From positions 1-38,740 of the IMG/VR virus record IMGVR_UViG_3300020045_002935: 38,740 bases of DNA; one strand, given 5' to 3'. Positions within the stretch are counted from its first letter, which is position 1, and each line of letters begins with the position of its first letter. The notes under the pieces are model-generated. The model did not search any database. It saw nothing but the letters and a program-made list of their open reading frames with translations, and was not told the DNA's origin. A program made the translations under genes and the position numbers. Shown piece after piece: positions 1,067 through 33,577 of the stretch. This DNA is from a virus (taxonomy: Duplodnaviria; Caudoviricetes).

Positions 1067-1152
1067 ACAAACCCACCAAAAAGCAACTAACCACTAAACG
1101 GAGTCAAAGGAACTCCTTTTCGTTAGCGACGTAGAATATCCGCTTTTGGTGT

Positions 1153-1196
1153 AATTAGTTAAAGTTTGAATAATCATTTGAACTTTAACTAATTTT
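1153..1196 (+). terminator. 14-bp inverted repeat (possible terminator and/or operator)
   Basis: AATTAGTTAAAGTT (1153-1166) pairs with AACTTTAACTAATT (1181-1194), followed by Ts. Confidence 0.5.
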
Positions 1197-3412: not shown

Positions 3413-3444
3413 CTTGTTTATTCAAAAAATAATGTTTATCTTTG
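3413..3444 (+). promoter_or_regulatory. Promoter of the replication operon
   Basis: CTTG (3413-3416), N20, TATCTTTG (3437-3444). Confidence 0.7.
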
Positions 3445-3457
3445 TCGTGTATTAAAA

Positions 3458-3552
3458 ATTGTACTGCCATACAATAACAAGAAATTGAGCGAAAGCTCTA
3501 AACTGAGAGTTATAATGATAGGGTGGCAGCCCTTGACTTATAGCTCTTTTTT
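3458..3552 (+). ncRNA. Structured leader RNA with loop-loop complementarity, ending in a terminator-like hairpin
   Basis: Three hairpins. Loops CTGCCA and TGGCAG are complementary, and a U-tract follows the last stem. Confidence 0.6.
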
Positions 3553-3601
3553 GTTTAATAATATTTAAAATTTACTTGTTTTTTAAAACATTTATAACAT
3601 T

Positions 3602-3808
3602 ATGGCTAATGTAAAAGTTGTATTTTATGGTTCGGAAAAAAGCAATACATCCGAACATTCTCTAAATTGCTATACAAATGCATCAGATGAAATATTTATA
3701 TCTATTGATATGGATAACGATTTCCCATTTGCATCTTTTATCTCTTTAGATAAAGAAACAGCAATAAAACTATCCCGTGAGTTGCGTAAACAAATTTCAT
3801 ACATTTGA
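3602..3808 (+). CDS. Hypothetical protein
   Basis: First ORF after the leader; overlaps the next gene. Confidence 0.7.
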   Translation: MANVKVVFYGSEKSNTSEHSLNCYTNASDEIFISIDMDNDFPFASFISLDKETAIKLSRELRKQISYI

Positions 3809-6577: not shown

Positions 6578-6856
6578 ATGAACTTAAAAGAAGTAATCAC
6601 TCGTAACTACAACGCAACCGTAAGACGTGGACAAATAAGCAATAAAACAACTGTAACGGACTTTCTAAACAAAATAGATGAAGAGGTTGAAGAATTAAAA
6701 GATAGCCGTAAAAAGTGCTCTAAAATTTATCCGTTCGATCCACTTGAAGCCATTGATGTAATATTAGTCAATGCTACCATGTTACACCATTACGGATTTG
6801 ATGTAGAAAGTTTACTAAATAAAAAAGTAGAAATAAATGAAACAAGAAAAGATTAA
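6578..6856 (+). CDS. MazG-like nucleotide pyrophosphohydrolase
   Basis: KIDEEVEEL...EAIDV (ExxE...ExxD) and KKVEINETR. Confidence 0.7.
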   Translation: MNLKEVITRNYNATVRRGQISNKTTVTDFLNKIDEEVEELKDSRKKCSKIYPFDPLEAIDVILVNATMLHHYGFDVESLLNKKVEINETRKD

Positions 6857-7166
6857 AAAGTATTATTTAAGTGGTAGAATATCAGGGTTAAGTGTAGAAG
6901 AATACACTCTTAATTTTTTATCTGCAGGAGATGCATTATTCTACTCAAACGAGTTTAATGTAGAAAAGGACATAATTGTAAATCCTTTACATATAAAACC
7001 GTTTTTAGGCATAAAATCATGGTTAACATACATGATTGCAGACGTTTTAAAACAAAGAAAGTGTACACATTCAGTATTTCAAAAGAACTGGATTGAAAGT
7101 AAAGGAAGTGTTATAGAATATTTCTTAGCGAAGTTTATCTTTAAACAAAAAATTATTTTCATTTGA
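6837..7166 (+). CDS. DUF4406 (nucleoside deoxyribosyltransferase-like) protein
   Basis: YLSGRISG...VNP...W..YM..D...W.ESKG..IE..LA. Confidence 0.7.
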   Translation: MKQEKIKKYYLSGRISGLSVEEYTLNFLSAGDALFYSNEFNVEKDIIVNPLHIKPFLGIKSWLTYMIADVLKQRKCTHSVFQKNWIESKGSVIEYFLAKFIFKQKIIFI

Positions 7167-7798: not shown

Positions 7799-7801
7799 AT
7801 T

Positions 7802-8065
7802 ATGAAAAATAAACGAATTTATATCGCTCAAAACGAAATAGGAGTAATCCAAGGCGTAAAAGTAAGAGCAAAGCTATTAACTAACAACACAAAGTATAAC
7901 GTTCAATGCGAATGCCCTTGTAAGGATTGCGCTTTGAAAAACAAAAACATCTGTTTTGAGGTTGTTGGAGAAAAACGATTATCACTACCAACAAGACCAG
8001 CATGTTTCGGGAATGATCCTGAAAACTTGTTAAGCATGCCATTAATTTACGTTAACGAAAAATAA
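7802..8065 (+). CDS. Cys-rich hypothetical protein
   Basis: CECPCKDCAL...C...C. Confidence 0.6.
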   Translation: MKNKRIYIAQNEIGVIQGVKVRAKLLTNNTKYNVQCECPCKDCALKNKNICFEVVGEKRLSLPTRPACFGNDPENLLSMPLIYVNEK

Positions 8066-8076
8066 ACAGCTAATAG

Positions 8077-8107
8077 TTTGTTTATTAGCAAATAATTACT
8101 ATATTTG
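8077..8107 (+). promoter_or_regulatory. Promoter for the ncRNA/tRNA-like unit and downstream genes
   Basis: TTTG (8077-8080), N19, TATATTTG (8100-8107). Confidence 0.75.
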
Positions 8108-8109
8108 CA

Positions 8110-8313
8110 TGTGATTAAGATTGAAGCAACGAATAAATATATTACTCGAAATGCTGTGAGTAGTTTAAACCGATAACAGATGGAATTAGTCGGGTATTTA
8201 TAACTTAGGCATAAGTTAGTTTGTTAGATGTGTCATACTTCATTAAAAGAGACCACCCAAGGTAGTAATAGTAGATAGGTATATGATATTTCTTATGTGA
8301 GGACTTAATCACA
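8110..8313 (+). ncRNA. Candidate ~200-nt multibranched structured RNA
   Basis: 10-bp closing helix TGTGATTAAG/CTTAATCACA, several internal hairpins, no ORF in the track, begins at the predicted TSS. Confidence 0.6.
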
Positions 8314-8317
8314 AAAC

Positions 8318-8393
8318 TCCCCATTAGCTCAGTTGGTTAGAGCATTCAGGCGTAATAGTCCAGAGGTCGATAGTTCGAGTCTATCATGGGGAG
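8318..8393 (+). tRNA. tRNA-like element (Asn-like body, aberrant anticodon arm, no encoded CCA)
   Basis: Acceptor TCCCCAT/ATGGGGA+G; D arm GCTC-AGTTGGTTA-GAGC; T arm GATAG-TTCGAGT-CTATC. The anticodon region is 2 nt too long and mismatched. Confidence 0.75.
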
Positions 8394-8412
8394 CAAAAAC
8401 AAATCAATCACC

Positions 8413-8589
8413 ATGAAGCAACAATTACTTGAATTTCTAAAATCAGACAACCACAACTACCATCCGATAATATCGCTATTTGAGCGTTTCGGTGAATGTG
8501 AAAGTGTTTTATCTGAGTTAGTTAATGAAGGGTTTATTACTGAAAGAATGGGCGTAAATCAAAGACTTTTTAAATTTAAAGAAGTATGA
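8413..8589 (+). CDS. Small winged-helix-like protein
   Basis: LSELVNEGFITERMGVN. Start moved to ATG 8413 because 8386 lies inside the tRNA-like element. Confidence 0.55.
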   Translation: MKQQLLEFLKSDNHNYHPIISLFERFGECESVLSELVNEGFITERMGVNQRLFKFKEV

Positions 8590-8867
8590 AAACAATCGAC
8601 GAAATTGCAAAAGAATACAGCGTAGATTTAACTGAGCAATCTATACTAATAGAAGGTATTAATATTGCGCAACGTTGGATTCCAGTTGAAGAAGAGTTGC
8701 CGGAGCAAGGCGAAGTTGTATTGTTTAAAATGACAATAGATAAATTTGATAATTCAAGCTATGTGTCTACTGGGCATATTGATAATAAAATTCCTATTAT
8801 TGATTTTGATGGTGTAGATATTGAAAGAATAGATGTTACTCATTGGCGTCCTGTCGATTTTAAATAA
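8586..8867 (+). CDS. DUF551 family protein
   Basis: WIPVEEELPE...VL...VTHWRP. Confidence 0.8.
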   Translation: MKTIDEIAKEYSVDLTEQSILIEGINIAQRWIPVEEELPEQGEVVLFKMTIDKFDNSSYVSTGHIDNKIPIIDFDGVDIERIDVTHWRPVDFK

Positions 8868-8873
8868 ACAACC

Positions 8874-9218
8874 ATGAAAAACACATTAATAAAAGATACG
8901 ACCCTTTCAATAAGGTGTATTAAATGTTTACATGCAGCTGATATAAACACAACTGTAGAATTAACGGCACACATTGAGAAATTCGGAATTTCCGATTTTG
9001 TTAAGTTTCGGCATTTTGGGTATAAATCATTTAATGAATTGAAAAAGTTTGTTGAAGAAAATAAGTTGATGAAAAACGAAATATCCGAAGAAGATAAAAA
9101 TTTAGCAATTGAGTTTGCGGAGTGGCATTTAAGATTGTTTGAATATTCTCATGAAAAGTGGGTTGAGCTTACAACTACTGAACTATTCACAAAATTCATT
9201 GAAAACCGTAATAAATAA
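8874..9218 (+). CDS. RNA polymerase alpha C-terminal domain-like protein
   Basis: LSIRCIKCLHAADI...KFRHFGYKSFNEL resembles the Bacteroidota RpoA CTD pattern (LSVRALNCLKAAD...KFRNFGKKSLTEL, recalled). Confidence 0.75.
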   Translation: MKNTLIKDTTLSIRCIKCLHAADINTTVELTAHIEKFGISDFVKFRHFGYKSFNELKKFVEENKLMKNEISEEDKNLAIEFAEWHLRLFEYSHEKWVELTTTELFTKFIENRNK

Positions 9219-9223
9219 ACAAT

Positions 9224-9967
9224 ATGAAACAGACATTTAAAATTCCAACAGGATGTAAAGAAATTTCCATTGAACAAGTGGGTGATAAAATTGTTACTAC
9301 TTTTGAAAAAAAGGAAAAGTTTAAGAAAGGTGATATATTATTTTGTGATTCGATATCAGGTTTAAATGGTATAATTATTCTTGAAAATGGCAGCTATACA
9401 ACTAAAATACCATATCTTTGCCATTTAGCTAAAAGTGGGAATTTTTATTTTACTAATTCAGTAACCAATGAGAATTTTCCTAAGCTACGTTTTGCGACTG
9501 ACTCAGAAAAACAACTTTTATTCGATGCTTTAGCTCATAAAGGCAAACAATGGAATGCCGAAAAGCTTTGCATTGAAGACTTGAAAGTAGTTCCGAAGGT
9601 TGGTGATTGCTGCCGTATTGACTTTATTGGTGAAGGAAAAGGTATTCATGATTATCTAGTTTATGGAGTTGATAATAGGTCTAAAGGTAATATTTTTTCA
9701 ACAAGATTTGGCGTTAATTCATACATGAGTTATGACGATGATGTAGAATTTATAATTATCACTAAAGACCAATTTCAATCAGAACTTAACGCACTCGGTT
9801 TTGAATACAATTTTGAAAATGATACTATTAGTGATTTGAAGTGGAAACCAAAAGAAGGAGAGCTGTATTATTACATAATGGATTGTGTTGTATTAGGCTG
9901 TAGACATTTTACAGACGGCATAGATATGGTGAGAATAGATTCAGGTAATTGTTTCAAAACATCCTAG
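9224..9967 (+). CDS. Hypothetical phage protein (possibly truncated by TAG)
   Basis: RFATDSEKQLLFDAL..KGKQWNAEK and WKPKEGE.YYY...GNCFKT modules; the frame stays open to 10012. Confidence 0.7.
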   Translation: MKQTFKIPTGCKEISIEQVGDKIVTTFEKKEKFKKGDILFCDSISGLNGIIILENGSYTTKIPYLCHLAKSGNFYFTNSVTNENFPKLRFATDSEKQLLFDALAHKGKQWNAEKLCIEDLKVVPKVGDCCRIDFIGEGKGIHDYLVYGVDNRSKGNIFSTRFGVNSYMSYDDDVEFIIITKDQFQSELNALGFEYNFENDTISDLKWKPKEGELYYYIMDCVVLGCRHFTDGIDMVRIDSGNCFKTS

Positions 9968-10020
9968 CTTTGCCGACAGGCTATTGATAAGATAAAAGAA
10001 ATACTAAAATAACAATAAAA

Positions 10021-10221
10021 ATGAAAGCAAAAGAATTAATTGATATATTAAAACAAAATCCTGAGTTGGAGGTTGTTATTTGTGAATGCAAAAAATATGA
10101 GGATAATATTCCATTATTACCTGTCCATTCGGTAGAAGTGTTTAATGATGAAGATTCAGATGATAATAAAATTATTTTAAGTTTTGATACTTATGGCACA
10201 AACTTATATAACCATAAATAA
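10021..10221 (+). CDS. Hypothetical protein
   Basis: MKAKELIDILKQNPELEVV, a common phage small-protein N-terminus. Confidence 0.65.
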   Translation: MKAKELIDILKQNPELEVVICECKKYEDNIPLLPVHSVEVFNDEDSDDNKIILSFDTYGTNLYNHK

Positions 10222-10345
10222 AAACAAAATACTGTTTTCAATTCCAGATACTAATATTCAAATATGCGAATTTTATAAGGAAAATGGTAATTGGAAATAT
10301 TATACATCAATTGTATTTAACGATAGCATACTATATTTAAACTAA
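10193..10345 (+). CDS. Small hypothetical protein (50 aa, MAQTYITINK...YLN)
   Basis: Translated by hand; its TAA overlaps the TerS ATG (TAATG). Confidence 0.5.
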   Translation: MAQTYITINKNKILFSIPDTNIQICEFYKENGNWKYYTSIVFNDSILYLN

Positions 10346-10794
10346 TGGCATATAGCGAAAAAGAAAAGACAGAGATATTCGATGACATTTGCATAGGGAT
10401 TGTAAATGGCTTATCTCTACGTGCTATATTGAACCAACTTGGCACTATACCAGCTAAAACTTTCTTTGAGTGGCTTAGAGAAGATGAGTCTAAAAGTAAA
10501 CAATACGCACGTGCGACCCTTGAACGCTCAGAGTTAATGTTTGAGGATATGATCGACATTGCGGATGATTCAAATAATGATTTTGAAGAGGTGGAAATAA
10601 CAGAAGGCGTGACAGCTAGAAAGTTTAATCCAGAACATGTCCAACGTTCAAGGCTTCGTGTTGATACTCGTAAATGGGCTTTATCAAAAATGAACCCTAA
10701 AAAGTACGGTGATAAGTTAGATGTAACAACAGATGGTAAAGAAGTAAATTCACAACCAACAATTATTTTCAAGAAATTCAAAAACGATGAGTGA
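10345..10794 (+). CDS. terS: Terminase small subunit
   Basis: HTH G.SLRAI...TFFEWL, QYARA, RSRLRVDTRKWALSKMNPKKYGDK. Confidence 0.9.
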   Translation: MAYSEKEKTEIFDDICIGIVNGLSLRAILNQLGTIPAKTFFEWLREDESKSKQYARATLERSELMFEDMIDIADDSNNDFEEVEITEGVTARKFNPEHVQRSRLRVDTRKWALSKMNPKKYGDKLDVTTDGKEVNSQPTIIFKKFKNDE

Positions 10795-12073
10795 TTTAGA
10801 AATTTCATATAAATTTCAACCATTATTCGAATTATTGGATAAAGAAATAAATCCAGAAATAGACACTGTAATAATGACAGGTGGAAGGTACTCTTTGAAG
10901 TCTTCCACCTGTGCTGTGTTTACTCTTGTAGCACTTGTAGAGTATATGTGGGATGTACTTTATTGCCGTTATACTAATCTTTCTATAGTTGATTCAGTAA
11001 AGCCAGAGGTAAGCGGTAAAATAGAGTTATTAGGGTATGAAAATAAAGTTAATGACATCTCAACACATATCGAAACAAAGAACCACCGCATATCATTTAA
11101 GGGAATAAAAACAGGATCAAGCCAGCAGACCGCAAATCTTAAGTCATTAACAGGATTTAATTGTTTTGTAGTTGATGAAGCTGAGGAAATACCAGACTTC
11201 GAAACGTTTAAAAAAGTATTTTATTCTATTCGTTCAGAGTCAAAAAGAAACTTAACTATTCTTATTTTAAACCCAACAGTTAAAGAGCATTGGATATTTG
11301 AGGAGTTTTTTAATAAAAAAGGATTAGAAGGTGGTGAAAATTGCATTAAAGATAATGTGATGTATATTCATACATCTTACTTGGATGCTGATTTTAGCCG
11401 AATACCTAAAAATATATTGGCAGATTATGAAAGATTGAAAGAGGAAAACGAAGAGAAGTATAACAACGTAGTGCTAGGTGGGTGGATTCAAGAGCCAGAA
11501 GGCGTCTTATTACCAAAATCAAAACTTAAATTCAAAGACCTATCAAATATACCAGAAGAAAGTATTGTTTATAAATTTGCAATTGGTGACCCTGCTGATG
11601 TTGGAGGTGATAAATTCTCAGTTCCTTTCATTCATGTAGCAGTGCATGAAAATTCAATCGTGTGTTATGTGAAGGATGTTATCCACTCGACTTATGGAAT
11701 AGAATCCAACACCGAAAGAGTAATCGAAAAGATGCATAATCAAAGGATAGAGCAGCTATTCTACGAGTCTAACGGTGTAGGACTGGCAGCAATACTATTA
11801 ATCAAGAATAAACTAAGCGAGCATCAAAAGCTAAGCGCATACGCAGCCACTATCAATAAAGAGGTGCGTATCTTCTCACACTACGAATTTGTTCAAAAGT
11901 ATTTTGTTTTCGATATTAACTACGAACAAAATATCGAGTACAAAGCTTTCATAAATGATTTAACTTCATACTCGAAAGAGGGGGACAATAAGCATAAGAA
12001 GGATGCTATAGATGTTTTATGTTCGGCAGCAGCTATCTTAAAGATAAAATATAAGCGGGTATTATATGCATAA
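10787..12073 (+). CDS. terL: Terminase large subunit (PBSX-like)
   Basis: Walker A GGRYSLKS, Walker B VVDEAEE, ILNPT, nuclease GDPAD...KKDAID. Confidence 0.92.
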   Translation: MSDLEISYKFQPLFELLDKEINPEIDTVIMTGGRYSLKSSTCAVFTLVALVEYMWDVLYCRYTNLSIVDSVKPEVSGKIELLGYENKVNDISTHIETKNHRISFKGIKTGSSQQTANLKSLTGFNCFVVDEAEEIPDFETFKKVFYSIRSESKRNLTILILNPTVKEHWIFEEFFNKKGLEGGENCIKDNVMYIHTSYLDADFSRIPKNILADYERLKEENEEKYNNVVLGGWIQEPEGVLLPKSKLKFKDLSNIPEESIVYKFAIGDPADVGGDKFSVPFIHVAVHENSIVCYVKDVIHSTYGIESNTERVIEKMHNQRIEQLFYESNGVGLAAILLIKNKLSEHQKLSAYAATINKEVRIFSHYEFVQKYFVFDINYEQNIEYKAFINDLTSYSKEGDNKHKKDAIDVLCSAAAILKIKYKRVLYA

Positions 12074-24910: not shown

Positions 24911-25402
24911 TTATTTTTTAGTGTTTAATGCTAACCCAAGCGGATTATATATTTTTACAAATTTTGTTCGTTGCTCTTGCACTGTTATCGCACTTACAAA
25001 TTTATGACAAACAAGTTTTCGCTTTTCATCCCAGACAATGCGAGCTTTATCAACTCCCTGAACAAAGAAAGTATGAGGGTGTTTCCTCCATTGTATTAAA
25101 TCGCCACTTTCGACTAGTTTCAAAATTTCAGATGGAATAAACGTATTTGCATGCTCAACACCTTTTATTTTCCATTCTTCTTTTTCTATCGCTTCTTTTG
25201 TCGTTTCGATACTTTTTTGAAGAGTCCTAATACTTTCATTTTGTCGCTCCCACTTATTTAAAGTGGCTTGTCCGTTTCGCTTGTCGTTTAAAGGCTGTCC
25301 GTTTGCCTGTTTTACAGTTGCAAAATGTTCGTCAAATTTAGCATTTAGTTGCTGTTCCTTCTTTGACAATGATTGTTTTAAAATTTCAAGTCTTTTGCTC
25401 AT
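24911..25402 (-). CDS. Moron-like hypothetical protein (only convincing minus-strand gene)
   Basis: 163 aa filling the gap, with its own promoter and terminator; ANGQPLNDKRNG and QWRKHP..FFV.GV motifs. Confidence 0.85.
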   Translation of the reverse strand: MSKRLEILKQSLSKKEQQLNAKFDEHFATVKQANGQPLNDKRNGQATLNKWERQNESIRTLQKSIETTKEAIEKEEWKIKGVEHANTFIPSEILKLVESGDLIQWRKHPHTFFVQGVDKARIVWDEKRKLVCHKFVSAITVQEQRTKFVKIYNPLGLALNTKK

Positions 25403-33118: not shown

Positions 33119-33165
33119 CTTTACGGTCTGTTTTCATGGTTACTTTTTAAATTGTTTATTACGAT

Positions 33166-33204
33166 ATATCCACTTGTTTGCGAAAATAGGTGGATATTTT
33201 TTTT
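33166..33204 (+). terminator. Rho-independent terminator ending the late region
   Basis: ATATCCACTTGTTT-GCGA-AAATAGGTGGATAT followed by a T-run. Confidence 0.8.
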
Positions 33205-33242
33205 GATTTAAAGTTAAACTTTTAAAAACATATAATAAACCA

Positions 33243-33274
33243 TTTGTTTTATTCAAAACTATTTACTTACTTTG
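33243..33274 (+). promoter_or_regulatory. Putative promoter of a short transcript
   Basis: TTTG, N20, TTACTTTG. Confidence 0.5.
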
Positions 33275-33413
33275 CAATTCAATAGTATAAACTATACGCG
33301 TAATTAGTACTAACATTTAAACAACTCGGACATGAAAATGAAACGACGGCAATTCTCAGCCACTACTAAACGAGAAAAACTATAAAACAAACTACCGGTG
33401 GACGTATGTCCGT

Positions 33414-33448
33414 AAAGCCTATTATACATTGATATAATAGGCTTTTTT
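33414..33448 (+). terminator. Rho-independent terminator
   Basis: AAAGCCTATTATA-CATTGA-TATAATAGGCTTT-TTT. Confidence 0.8.
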
Positions 33449-33498
33449 CATCCAATTAGTTAAACTTTCATCATTTATTGAAAATAGTTTACTTTTTA

Positions 33499-33530
33499 TT
33501 TGGTAGATAGTAAAATATAGTTTACCTTTG
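33499..33530 (+). promoter_or_regulatory. Early promoter with overlapping inverted repeat
   Basis: TTTG, N20, TACCTTTG; GTAAA-N6-TTTAC overlaps the -7 element. Confidence 0.75.
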
Positions 33531-33577
33531 TATCATACAAAAGGAAATAAAACAACAACCAAATAAAAATAACGACC

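What the first reader, a model, noticed from the sequence alone, without database searches (positions are those of the whole stretch)
8110..8313. Candidate novel ~200-nt multibranched phage ncRNA
Seen: starts right after a consensus promoter and is closed by a perfect 10-bp helix (8110-8119/8304-8313). Domain 1: AACGAA/TTTGTT and TAAATAT/GTATTTA stems, with hairpins TACTC/GAGTA, CCGATAA/TTAGTCGG and TAACTTA-GGCA-TAAGTTA. Domain 2: TGTCATA/TATGATA with small inner stems. It is one of the largest ORF-free stretches in a compact genome. Established: GOLLD and ROOL RNAs occur beside phage tRNAs, but they are larger. I cannot assign this RNA to a known family.
Basis: partly seen in the sequence, partly recalled or inferred. 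Interest (0 to 1): 0.82.

Follow-up and report, generated by a model that had tools for sequence, protein, structure and literature searches.

The report
Phage RNA cassette before decayed tRNA
A small phage whose promoters and closest protein relatives point to a Bacteroidota host carries, right behind a host-type promoter, a 200-base gene-free stretch that matches no catalogued RNA family and whose first half is almost unchanged in related phage sequences; it is likely a folded non-coding RNA that would be cut free at a neighbouring damaged tRNA and may act as a tRNA-shaped decoy against host defences.

Summary
The observation mostly holds. The window is a complete 38.7-kb phage. 8110-8313 follows a full Bacteroidota -33/-7 promoter, one of four in the genome. 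A perfect terminal helix closes it (34 of 20,000 shuffles), and a tRNA-Asn-like gene with a scrambled anticodon arm starts 4 nt later. No Rfam family matches at E<=10. Domain 1 (about 8111-8221) is nearly invariant in contigs of 4 of 4 runs laid while neighbouring ORFs diverge. A related phage keeps the promoter and first bases but holds a different ~100-nt closed RNA and no tRNA, so the slot is a swappable cassette.

Against: folding energy is unremarkable (z -1.2), the minus strand folds with a better z-score, two inner helices have low pairing probability, domain 2 is weak, no covariation was obtainable and no transcript is shown. Domain 1 can be drawn as two three-way junctions with kissing loops, like the SRP Alu domain and purine riboswitch, but fails membership of both.

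Best reading: an accessory RNA of the T4 RNA C/D kind, released at the tRNA-like element; decoy role inferred. Interest 0.45.

The parts
8077..8107 (+). Bacteroidota housekeeping promoter: -33 TTTG (8077-8080), 19-nt spacer, -7 element (8100-8107); +1 predicted near 8112
   Evidence: sequence; 1 of 4 complete promoters; consensus and numbering from PMC6847099; -7 element kept in L003
8110..8313 (+). Candidate non-coding RNA, closed by terminal helix P1 (8110-8119 with 8304-8313)
   Evidence: no Rfam hit
8128..8225 (+). Domain 1, the conserved core: predicted P2 (8128-8133/8220-8225), P3 (8134-8140/8194-8200) and three hairpins; two three-way junctions
   Evidence: near-invariant in 4 of 4 runs laid; complementarity and pair probabilities; a fold with P2 and P3 within 1.1 kcal/mol of the MFE
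8141..8164 (+). Hairpin P4; loop bases 8154-8157 are complementary to 8176-8179 (predicted kissing loop)
   Evidence: a 4-bp match with 2 G-C pairs in 3% of random loop pairs, any 4-bp match in 21%
8170..8193 (+). Hairpin P5, joined to P4 by a 5-nt U/A linker (8165-8169)
   Evidence: outer 4 pairs 0.71-0.73
8201..8218 (+). Hairpin P6, 7 Watson-Crick pairs with a GNRA tetraloop
   Evidence: 0.73-0.92
8227..8300 (+). Domain 2: one irregular stem (8230-8237/8282-8289) around an A-rich, weakly structured loop; apparently variable between relatives
   Evidence: three contigs stop aligning at 8221 with letters left over
8318..8393 (+). tRNA-like gene: intact acceptor, D and T arms of a tRNA-Asn type, damaged anticodon arm (3 of 5 pairs, two extra bases), no encoded CCA
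   Evidence: ARAGORN calls it Ile(aat); Rfam tRNA 45.7 bits; near-full-length host matches are tRNA-Asn(gtt) in 3 of the 7 loci read; X3 contig differences
8413..8589 (+). First ORF of the downstream operon (58 aa); follows the slot in the window, L003, X1 and X4
7802..8065 (+). Upstream ORF (87 aa); divergent flank used as conservation control
   Evidence: X1: 20 listed differences in 7906-7999

Best explanation
8110-8313 lies directly behind a Bacteroidota-type promoter and in front of a tRNA-like gene, and is likely an accessory non-coding RNA that would be released from the operon's 5' leader by host tRNA-processing cuts and would then likely act in trans as a compact, tRNA-shaped decoy for host proteins that attack or bind tRNA. 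Steps: (1) host polymerase starts near 8112 (promoter shown by sequence, start inferred); (2) the ends pair (shown as complementarity) and domain 1 folds into two three-way junctions with a loop-loop contact (predicted); (3) no + strand terminator is predicted between 8313 and 8697, so a discrete RNA needs a cut, and the tRNA-Asn-like gene, which keeps acceptor, D and T arms but not its decoding arm, would supply RNase P and 3' trimming sites (inferred); (4) the freed RNA titrates a tRNA- or translation-directed defence protein (inferred from shape, neighbourhood and swappability; no direct evidence). My odds: functional structured RNA 0.75; released at the tRNA-like element 0.5; decoy role 0.25.
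For: Promoter and end helix. Domain 1 conservation: X2 0 differences in 126 nt, X3 3 in 111, X4 3 in 138; X4's contig on the downstream ORF has 17 differences and 2 gaps in about 155 nt (Fisher p=0.0013); X1's single contig has 20 listed differences in 94 nt of the upstream ORF. All 4 runs laid share this same segment. X3's match begins at 8111, at the predicted start. The one listed substitution inside domain 1 (8131 G to A, X4) turns a G-U pair of P2 into A-U and would break the competing + strand hairpin 8125-8155. Relative L003 keeps the promoter and first 9 bases, then has a different ~100-nt RNA that is again closed end to end (z -2.0, 8 of 200 shuffles) and no tRNA: the slot is for closed RNAs and this RNA is dispensable or replaceable. 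The tRNA-like gene differs from X3's tRNA contig at 14 places, 10 of them in the 20-nt anticodon/variable part (binomial p about 3e-4). Precedent: T4 RNA C and D come from the tRNA region and have no known role (PMC3014915, PMC9697503 passages); the Alu fold resembles tRNA (PMC4231752 passages); phage tRNAs are proposed to counter tRNA-cutting defences (PMC10264068 abstract).
Against: No covariation: no diverged homologue was found in any collection, and only one substitution is informative. The runs were found by exact 31-mers, which selects for near-identity; they are 4 runs of 3 studies; 12 difference rows were not shown, and contigs within a run are not proven to be one genome. Recent exchange of a DNA block would look the same. 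+ strand z is only -1.18, the minus strand gives -4.10 (-3.4). The tRNA control also scores better on its wrong strand (-3.25 vs -1.88), but here the minus strand gains 12 kcal/mol from G-U pairs whereas the tRNA and L003 controls gain none, and the 8131 change is tolerated in the minus fold too. P2 and P3 have pair probabilities of 0.16-0.39. X3's tRNA contig diverges after 8398 and may be from another phage or a host. L003 makes its RNA with no tRNA behind it, so tRNA-linked release is not general to the slot. Nothing tested here bears on the decoy role.
Confidence: 0.35

Rival explanations
1. Cis-acting 5' leader: the structure stays on the polycistronic mRNA and controls or stabilises expression of the operon that runs to the terminase genes, like an HK022 put antiterminator or a 5' stabiliser (both recalled, not tested).
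For: It begins at the predicted +1 of a promoter that heads ORFs 8413 to 12073; no + strand terminator-like site between 8313 and 8697; L003's RNA is also the direct leader of the same operon; the operon encodes an RNA-polymerase alpha-CTD-like protein at 8874 (Pfam E 1.8e-9).
Against: The same operon takes a quite different RNA in L003; an intact tRNA body between RNA and first ORF would let the leader be cut off; no terminator/antiterminator pair or sequestered start codon next to 8413 was seen.
Confidence: 0.22
2. Not a selected RNA structure on the + strand: a recently exchanged or DNA-level block with a chance end helix, or an RNA read from the minus strand.
For: + strand z -1.18; minus strand z -4.10 with its own G-U-containing helices; near-identity is favoured by how the runs were found; a minus-strand terminator-like site at 8266-8252.
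Against: No minus-strand TAnnTTTG in 8201-9500; promoter, tRNA-like gene and the operon's ORFs are on +; the end helix starts at the predicted +1 in both the window and L003; the known + strand tRNA also scores better on its minus strand.
Confidence: 0.17
3. Ligand-binding RNA built on a purine-riboswitch-like junction: the inner three-way junction binds a nucleoside or nucleotide-type molecule, as a sensor in the leader or as a sponge.
For: Junction spacing equals the Rfam Purine consensus shown (3, 8 and 2 nt); 6 of 8 bases of the long joining strand and the junction-side pairs of the closing stem agree; a pattern written for this fits 0.06% of 20,000 shuffles and only this site in the genome; variant classes with changed ligands exist (PMC6847200 introduction); a weak PRA-PH match (E 0.006) and a nucleoside deoxyribosyltransferase-like gene lie upstream.
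Against: The pattern was made after seeing the sequence, and after comparing many families by eye. Positions equal to 51 and 74 are purines and can pair inside the RNA, closing the pocket; both loop sequences differ from the consensus; RF00167 finds nothing at E<=10 while controls ring; my domain-1 model does not score real Bacteroidota purine riboswitches (0 of 4).
Confidence: 0.08
4. Alu-like ribosome ligand: domain 1 folds like the protein-free bacterial SRP Alu domain and slows host elongation by occupying the factor-binding site.
For: Same helix order as B. subtilis Alu (helix 1, 2, hairpins 3 and 4 with a short linker and kissing loops, helix 5), two three-way junctions (PMC4231752 passages).
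Against: No UGU in the linker, no S domain, a 4-bp rather than 5-bp kiss, helix-5 equivalent only 7 bp; RF01854 finds nothing at E<=10 while controls ring; slowing elongation would also hurt the phage.
Confidence: 0.06
5. Antisense regulator: domain 2 pairs with the start region of the ORF at 8586.
For: 8233-8247 is 14 of 15 complementary to 8575-8589, across that start codon; best of 60 ORF starts.
Against: 64 of 1,103 genome windows pair as well or better; the segment is inside the domain-2 stem; domain 2 looks variable.
Confidence: 0.05

Closest known systems
Phage T4 RNA C and RNA D
   Same: Small RNAs transcribed from a phage tRNA region, of unknown role (PMC3014915 and PMC9697503 passages).
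   Different: Different host phylum; no similarity over the RNA in 50,697 phage records; here a single damaged tRNA, not a cluster; expression not shown.
GOLLD (RF02032) and ROOL RNAs
   Same: Phage RNAs of unknown function near tRNA genes, with loop-loop contacts (10.1101/2024.12.08.627333 passages).
   Different: Many GOLLD members exceed 800 nt; this is 204 nt, with no Rfam match.
Bacterial SRP Alu domain (RF01854)
   Same: Predicted helix order, two three-way junctions, kissing loops, tRNA-like shape (PMC4231752).
   Different: No UGU linker, no S domain, no model match.
Purine riboswitch aptamer (RF00167)
   Same: Junction spacing, part of the long joining strand, loop-loop contact.
   Different: Ligand-contact positions are purines, loops differ, no expression platform seen, no model match.
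Theta ribozymes of gut phages
   Same: Structured RNA abutting a phage tRNA (PMC10879173, search listing only).
   Different: Those are minimal HDV-like ribozymes; that they lie at the tRNA 3' side is recalled. This RNA is 5' of the tRNA, larger, and has no Rfam ribozyme match.
phi29 packaging RNA (recalled, no call)
   Same: Three-way junction with a U-rich linker and two complementary loops.
   Different: This phage has small and large terminase subunits and a relative lacks the RNA.

Membership tests
Any Rfam 15 family | Covariance-model match at the gathering score | tested here: not met
   0 matches in the window at gathering; in 8040-8440 at E<=10, 5 matches: tRNA, its minus-strand echo and 3 chance-level hits of 15-21 bits
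GOLLD / ROOL | Model match and large ornate size | tested here: not met
   204 nt against GOLLD members often over 800 nt
GOLLD / ROOL | Location beside phage tRNA genes | tested here: met
   tRNA-like gene 4 nt downstream
GOLLD / ROOL | Shared 5' leader with Bacteroidota GOLLD genes (claimed in an earlier AI note) | tested here: inconclusive
   no GOLLD gene found to compare: 0 of 5 records and 0 of 150 genomes, controls silent
Purine riboswitch (RF00167) | Three-way junction with 3/8/2-nt joining strands and loop-loop contact | tested here: met
   as a predicted fold only; consensus, pattern test, loops
Purine riboswitch (RF00167) | Pyrimidines at ligand-contact positions 51 and 74 | tested here: not met
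   equivalent positions 8168 and 8194 are A and G
Purine riboswitch (RF00167) | Conserved L2 and L3 loop sequences; model match | tested here: not met
Purine riboswitch (RF00167) | Ligand binding and switching | not testable with these tools
   needs in-line probing
Large SRP RNA / Alu domain (RF01854) | Helix order 1-2-3-4-5 with two three-way junctions and L3-L4 pseudoknot | tested here: inconclusive
   drawable but P2/P3 probabilities 0.16-0.39 and no covariation
Large SRP RNA / Alu domain (RF01854) | UGU in the helix 3-4 linker | tested here: not met
   linker 8165-8169 has no G (feature)
Large SRP RNA / Alu domain (RF01854) | S domain; model match | tested here: not met
tmRNA, RNase P RNA, 6S RNA, self-cleaving ribozymes, group I intron | Family model or ARAGORN match | tested here: not met
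Retron-type msr-msd RNA | Terminal inverted repeat plus a linked reverse transcriptase | tested here: not met
   repeat present; no reverse transcriptase among 61 ORFs scanned in PHROGs
CRISPR-repeat mimic (RNA anti-CRISPR) | Likeness to a host CRISPR repeat | tested here: inconclusive
   a 16-base motif from the 3' end gave 0-6 scattered matches per genome in 201 genomes, like the reversed control, no arrays; no Rfam repeat match; only that end was tested
Functional decoding tRNA (8318-8393) | Intact 5-bp anticodon stem in standard spacing | tested here: not met
   3 of 5 pairs and two extra bases
T4 RNA C/D-type stable phage small RNAs (kind) | Discrete stable transcript from the tRNA region | not testable with these tools
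   only contigs were available
Fremin et al. 2023 viral candidate RNAs (PMC10690425) | Presence in the published alignments | tested here: inconclusive
   0 hits for 4 motifs in the 3 of 6 held files searched; both zip archives and file 4 not searched, mmc1-3 unreadable

The most novel reading that the evidence does not exclude
A phage has built a protein-free RNA on the purine-riboswitch/Alu type of fold, with a re-plumbed junction, and uses a tRNA husk as a cut site to mass-produce it as a sponge for a host nucleotide-type immune signal or as a blocker of a tRNA-recognising defence protein; related phages swap different such RNAs into the same promoter slot, as they swap anti-defence proteins.
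Probability: 0.1. Interest if true: 0.85.

Novelty: new variant of a known kind. Interest (0 to 1): 0.45.

Why it matters
Small RNAs from phage tRNA regions (T4 RNA C/D, GOLLD, ROOL) are still without a known role. This locus is compact: one promoter, one RNA, one tRNA husk, in a 38.7-kb phage, and a relative carries a different RNA in the same slot. If real, it gives a small cassette that can be cloned and probed, and points to exchangeable RNA cargo in Bacteroidota phages. At present it is a candidate family without covariation or expression data.

Tried and rejected
Homologue searches that found none.
- IMG/VR pattern scans: (4 loci, chance). (119 loci, 59 of 64 parts scanned; blastn over the 126 loci then held found only L003 and one 21-nt match). 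(17 loci, none related; the motif covers position 8131, which varies). (3 loci: L003's contig and 2 chance). (5 unrelated tRNAs). (120 loci of about 240, 32 of 64 parts; none with more than 4 flanking pairs and no nhmmer hit; model R1 on 100 of the 120, 0 hits).
- Protein-anchored scans: terminase, 3 viral loci and 1 genome locus, a Prevotella MAG at 50%. Downstream ORF, 2 viral loci and 3 weak metagenome loci (L149 read and unrelated, L147 and L148 not read). Twelve proteins of the downstream ORF's family (one is the window's own) are listed from ENA/Logan, but their DNA could not be fetched.
- INPHARED and plasmids: no match over the RNA; none for L003's RNA.
- Bacteroidota genomes: blastn 1 of 301 at E 7e-4, a 29-nt match that the model does not support; single-sequence models R1 0 of 150 and R2 0 of 150; R2 0 of 5 isolated phages. 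These models rest on one sequence and no positive control genome was in the sets, so these blanks do not show absence.

Expression: no holder is on record as RNA. X2 and X3 are guessed RNA, contigs only, and X2's contig includes bases upstream of the predicted start, so they say nothing on a discrete transcript. No contig covers 8222-8308; lack of cover proves nothing.

Rejected ideas: a second copy at 1081-1163 (E 1.7, z -1.0); an 8-mer shared by domain 2 and the tRNA-like anticodon loop (5% of shuffles); antisense to 8586; coding role; CRISPR-repeat mimic; likeness by eye to RNase P, group I, hatchet and c-di-GMP motifs (recalled; no model match). My first domain-2 register was wrong and was corrected.

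Literature searches listed no paper describing this RNA; the library lacks most subscription journals, and unread supplements of PMC10690425 could hold it.

Full report
Setting. The window is a whole phage genome with direct terminal repeats, rated 100% complete. It has primase/helicase, small and large terminase, portal, tape measure and endolysin genes; no integrase or reverse transcriptase was found among 61 ORFs scanned. The best terminase and primase matches among isolated phages infect Olleya, Nonlabens, Tenacibaculum, Cellulophaga, Riemerella and Flavobacterium, so a Bacteroidota host is inferred. The finding lies in the gap between an 87-aa ORF ending at 8065 and a 58-aa ORF starting at 8413.

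Observation. The promoter is real as a sequence: -33 at 8077-8080, 19-nt spacer, -7 at 8100-8107. Only 4 such complete promoters exist on the + strand, all in intergenic gaps. By the numbering in PMC6847099 (passages) transcription would start near 8112. The 10-bp end helix is perfect and rare at that position (34 of 20,000 shuffles). The three domain-1 hairpins are well predicted (0.65-0.92), but the two helices that tie them together are not (0.16-0.39), and the whole folds no better than many shuffles (z -1.18, 26 of 200). Domain 2 is one irregular stem around a loose A-rich loop (z +0.34). Rfam gives nothing for 8110-8313 at E<=10.

Strand. The reverse complement folds with z -4.10. The neighbouring tRNA-like gene, certainly on +, also scores better on its minus strand (-3.25 vs -1.88), so part of this is composition. 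But the minus fold of the RNA gains 12 kcal/mol from G-U pairs where the controls gain none, so it cannot be dismissed on energy. Context decides for +: promoter, tRNA and operon ORFs are on +, and no minus-strand -7 element lies in 8201-9500.

Conservation. Five public runs hold 5-7% of the words of 7800-8900; four were laid. All four carry the same segment: X2 8096-8221 with 0 differences, X3 8111-8221 with 3, X4 8071-8208 with 3, and X1 7875-8221 with 38, of which 20 are listed in the upstream ORF (7906-7999); 12 rows were not shown. X4's contig on the downstream ORF has 17 differences and 2 gaps (p=0.0013 against its domain-1 contig). X2 and X4 have different DNA upstream of the promoter region, and X1, X2 and X3 stop aligning at 8221 with 9, 17 and 41 letters left, so domain 1 behaves as a conserved module with variable flanks and a variable domain 2. 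The one listed change inside domain 1 (8131) keeps P2. Caveats: word-based discovery favours near-identity, and near-identity gives no covariation. No diverged homologue was found elsewhere (see Tried and rejected).

A swappable slot. IMG/VR relative L003 (terminase 81% over the part held) has the same -7 element and first 9 bases and the same downstream ORF, but between them a different ~100-nt sequence that is again closed end to end by a 12-bp helix and folds as a multibranch (z -2.0), with no tRNA and no Rfam match. In X1 the letters before the downstream ORF look like the 3' half of a different tRNA (my reading of the loose end). The slot therefore carries exchangeable RNA cargo, and the 204-nt RNA is not needed in this form by all relatives. 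That argues against a packaging RNA.

The tRNA-like gene. 8318-8393 has a 7-bp acceptor stem, normal D and T arms, but only 3 of 5 anticodon-stem pairs and two extra bases. ARAGORN's Ile(aat) label is unreliable: the near-full-length host matches are tRNA-Asn(gtt) (3 of 7 loci read; the other 4 are partial Met/Val matches), and the differences listed for an X3 contig read as an intact stem with a GTT anticodon (my inference). Ten of its 14 differences fall in the 20-nt anticodon/variable part (p about 3e-4). Keeping the elbow and acceptor while losing the decoding arm is what a processing signal or decoy would show. That RNase P reads these parts is established knowledge, recalled. The X3 contig may come from another genome.

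Shape of domain 1. This is the helix order of the B. subtilis SRP Alu domain, which resembles tRNA (PMC4231752 passages), and the inner junction has the spacing and 6 of 8 joining bases of the Rfam purine-riboswitch consensus. Both memberships fail: no UGU or S domain, purines at the ligand positions, different loops, and no model match while controls ring. They are analogies of fold, not families.

Mechanism. Shown: promoter sequence, end helix, complementarities, conservation of domain 1, swapped cargo in L003, damaged anticodon arm, no predicted terminator before 8697. Inferred: start near 8112, the tertiary fold, release by tRNA processing. Speculative: action as a tRNA-shaped decoy for host defences (background: PMC10264068 abstract). 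The main rivals are a cis-acting leader (0.22) and a non-selected or minus-strand element (0.17).

Comparison and novelty. The closest kind is the small RNAs of phage tRNA regions: T4 RNA C/D (passages) and the far larger GOLLD and ROOL (passages). Two earlier AI notes describe other Bacteroidota phage RNAs in front of degenerate tRNAs; they are leads, not support, and no look-alike of this sequence was on file. Ten literature searches listed no description of this RNA; the alignments of PMC10690425 could not be searched (passages read). PMC6847200 (introduction) and PMC2018637 (passages) were used for riboswitch features; PMC10879173 was seen as a listing only. Verdict: probably a real, uncatalogued phage RNA module of a known general kind, unproven in structure and function. 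Interest 0.45.

Noticed in passing
L003 1511-1609: A different ~100-nt multibranch RNA candidate in the same promoter slot of a related phage; 12-bp end helix, z -2.0, no Rfam or phage-record match.
   Followed up: partly
window 8144-8150 and 8374-8380: Seven bases of hairpin P4 are the exact complement of the tRNA-like gene's T loop (0.4% of shuffles, post hoc); unexplained.
   Followed up: partly
window 8265-8272 and 8352-8359: The same 8-mer occurs in the domain-2 loop and in the altered anticodon loop (5% of shuffles).
   Followed up: partly
window 8874-9218: Phage protein matching the RNA polymerase alpha C-terminal domain (Pfam PF03118, E 1.8e-9) in the operon behind the RNA; possible transcription decoy or regulator.
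   Followed up: no
window 3437-3570: A -7 promoter element followed by a long leader hairpin and U tract, upstream of the DUF6291 gene at 3805; possible attenuator.
   Followed up: no
window 1081-1195: Weak look-alike of domain 1 (E 1.7, z -1.0) overlapping a 19-bp hairpin at about 1153-1195, before the promoter at 1232.
   Followed up: partly
window 24911-25402: A 163-aa minus-strand ORF between the tape-measure and tail genes, filling an otherwise empty gap, with no PHROG or Pfam match; moron-like.
   Followed up: no
window 33119-33577: A 459-nt gap with several hairpins and a complete promoter at 33523; no Rfam match at gathering.
   Followed up: no
window 6578-7166: A weak PRA-PH match (E 0.006) and a DUF4406 / nucleoside deoxyribosyltransferase-like gene about 1 kb upstream of the RNA.
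   Followed up: no
L304, L305, L307 (about 1501-1606): Purine-family riboswitches in Bacteroidota genomes with C at the position-51 equivalent and a 2-nt insertion in the short joining strand, as described for the 2'-dG-II class.
   Followed up: no
window 8401 (run X1 loose end): In a relative the bases before the downstream ORF look like the 3' half of a different tRNA with an unusual T loop.
   Followed up: no
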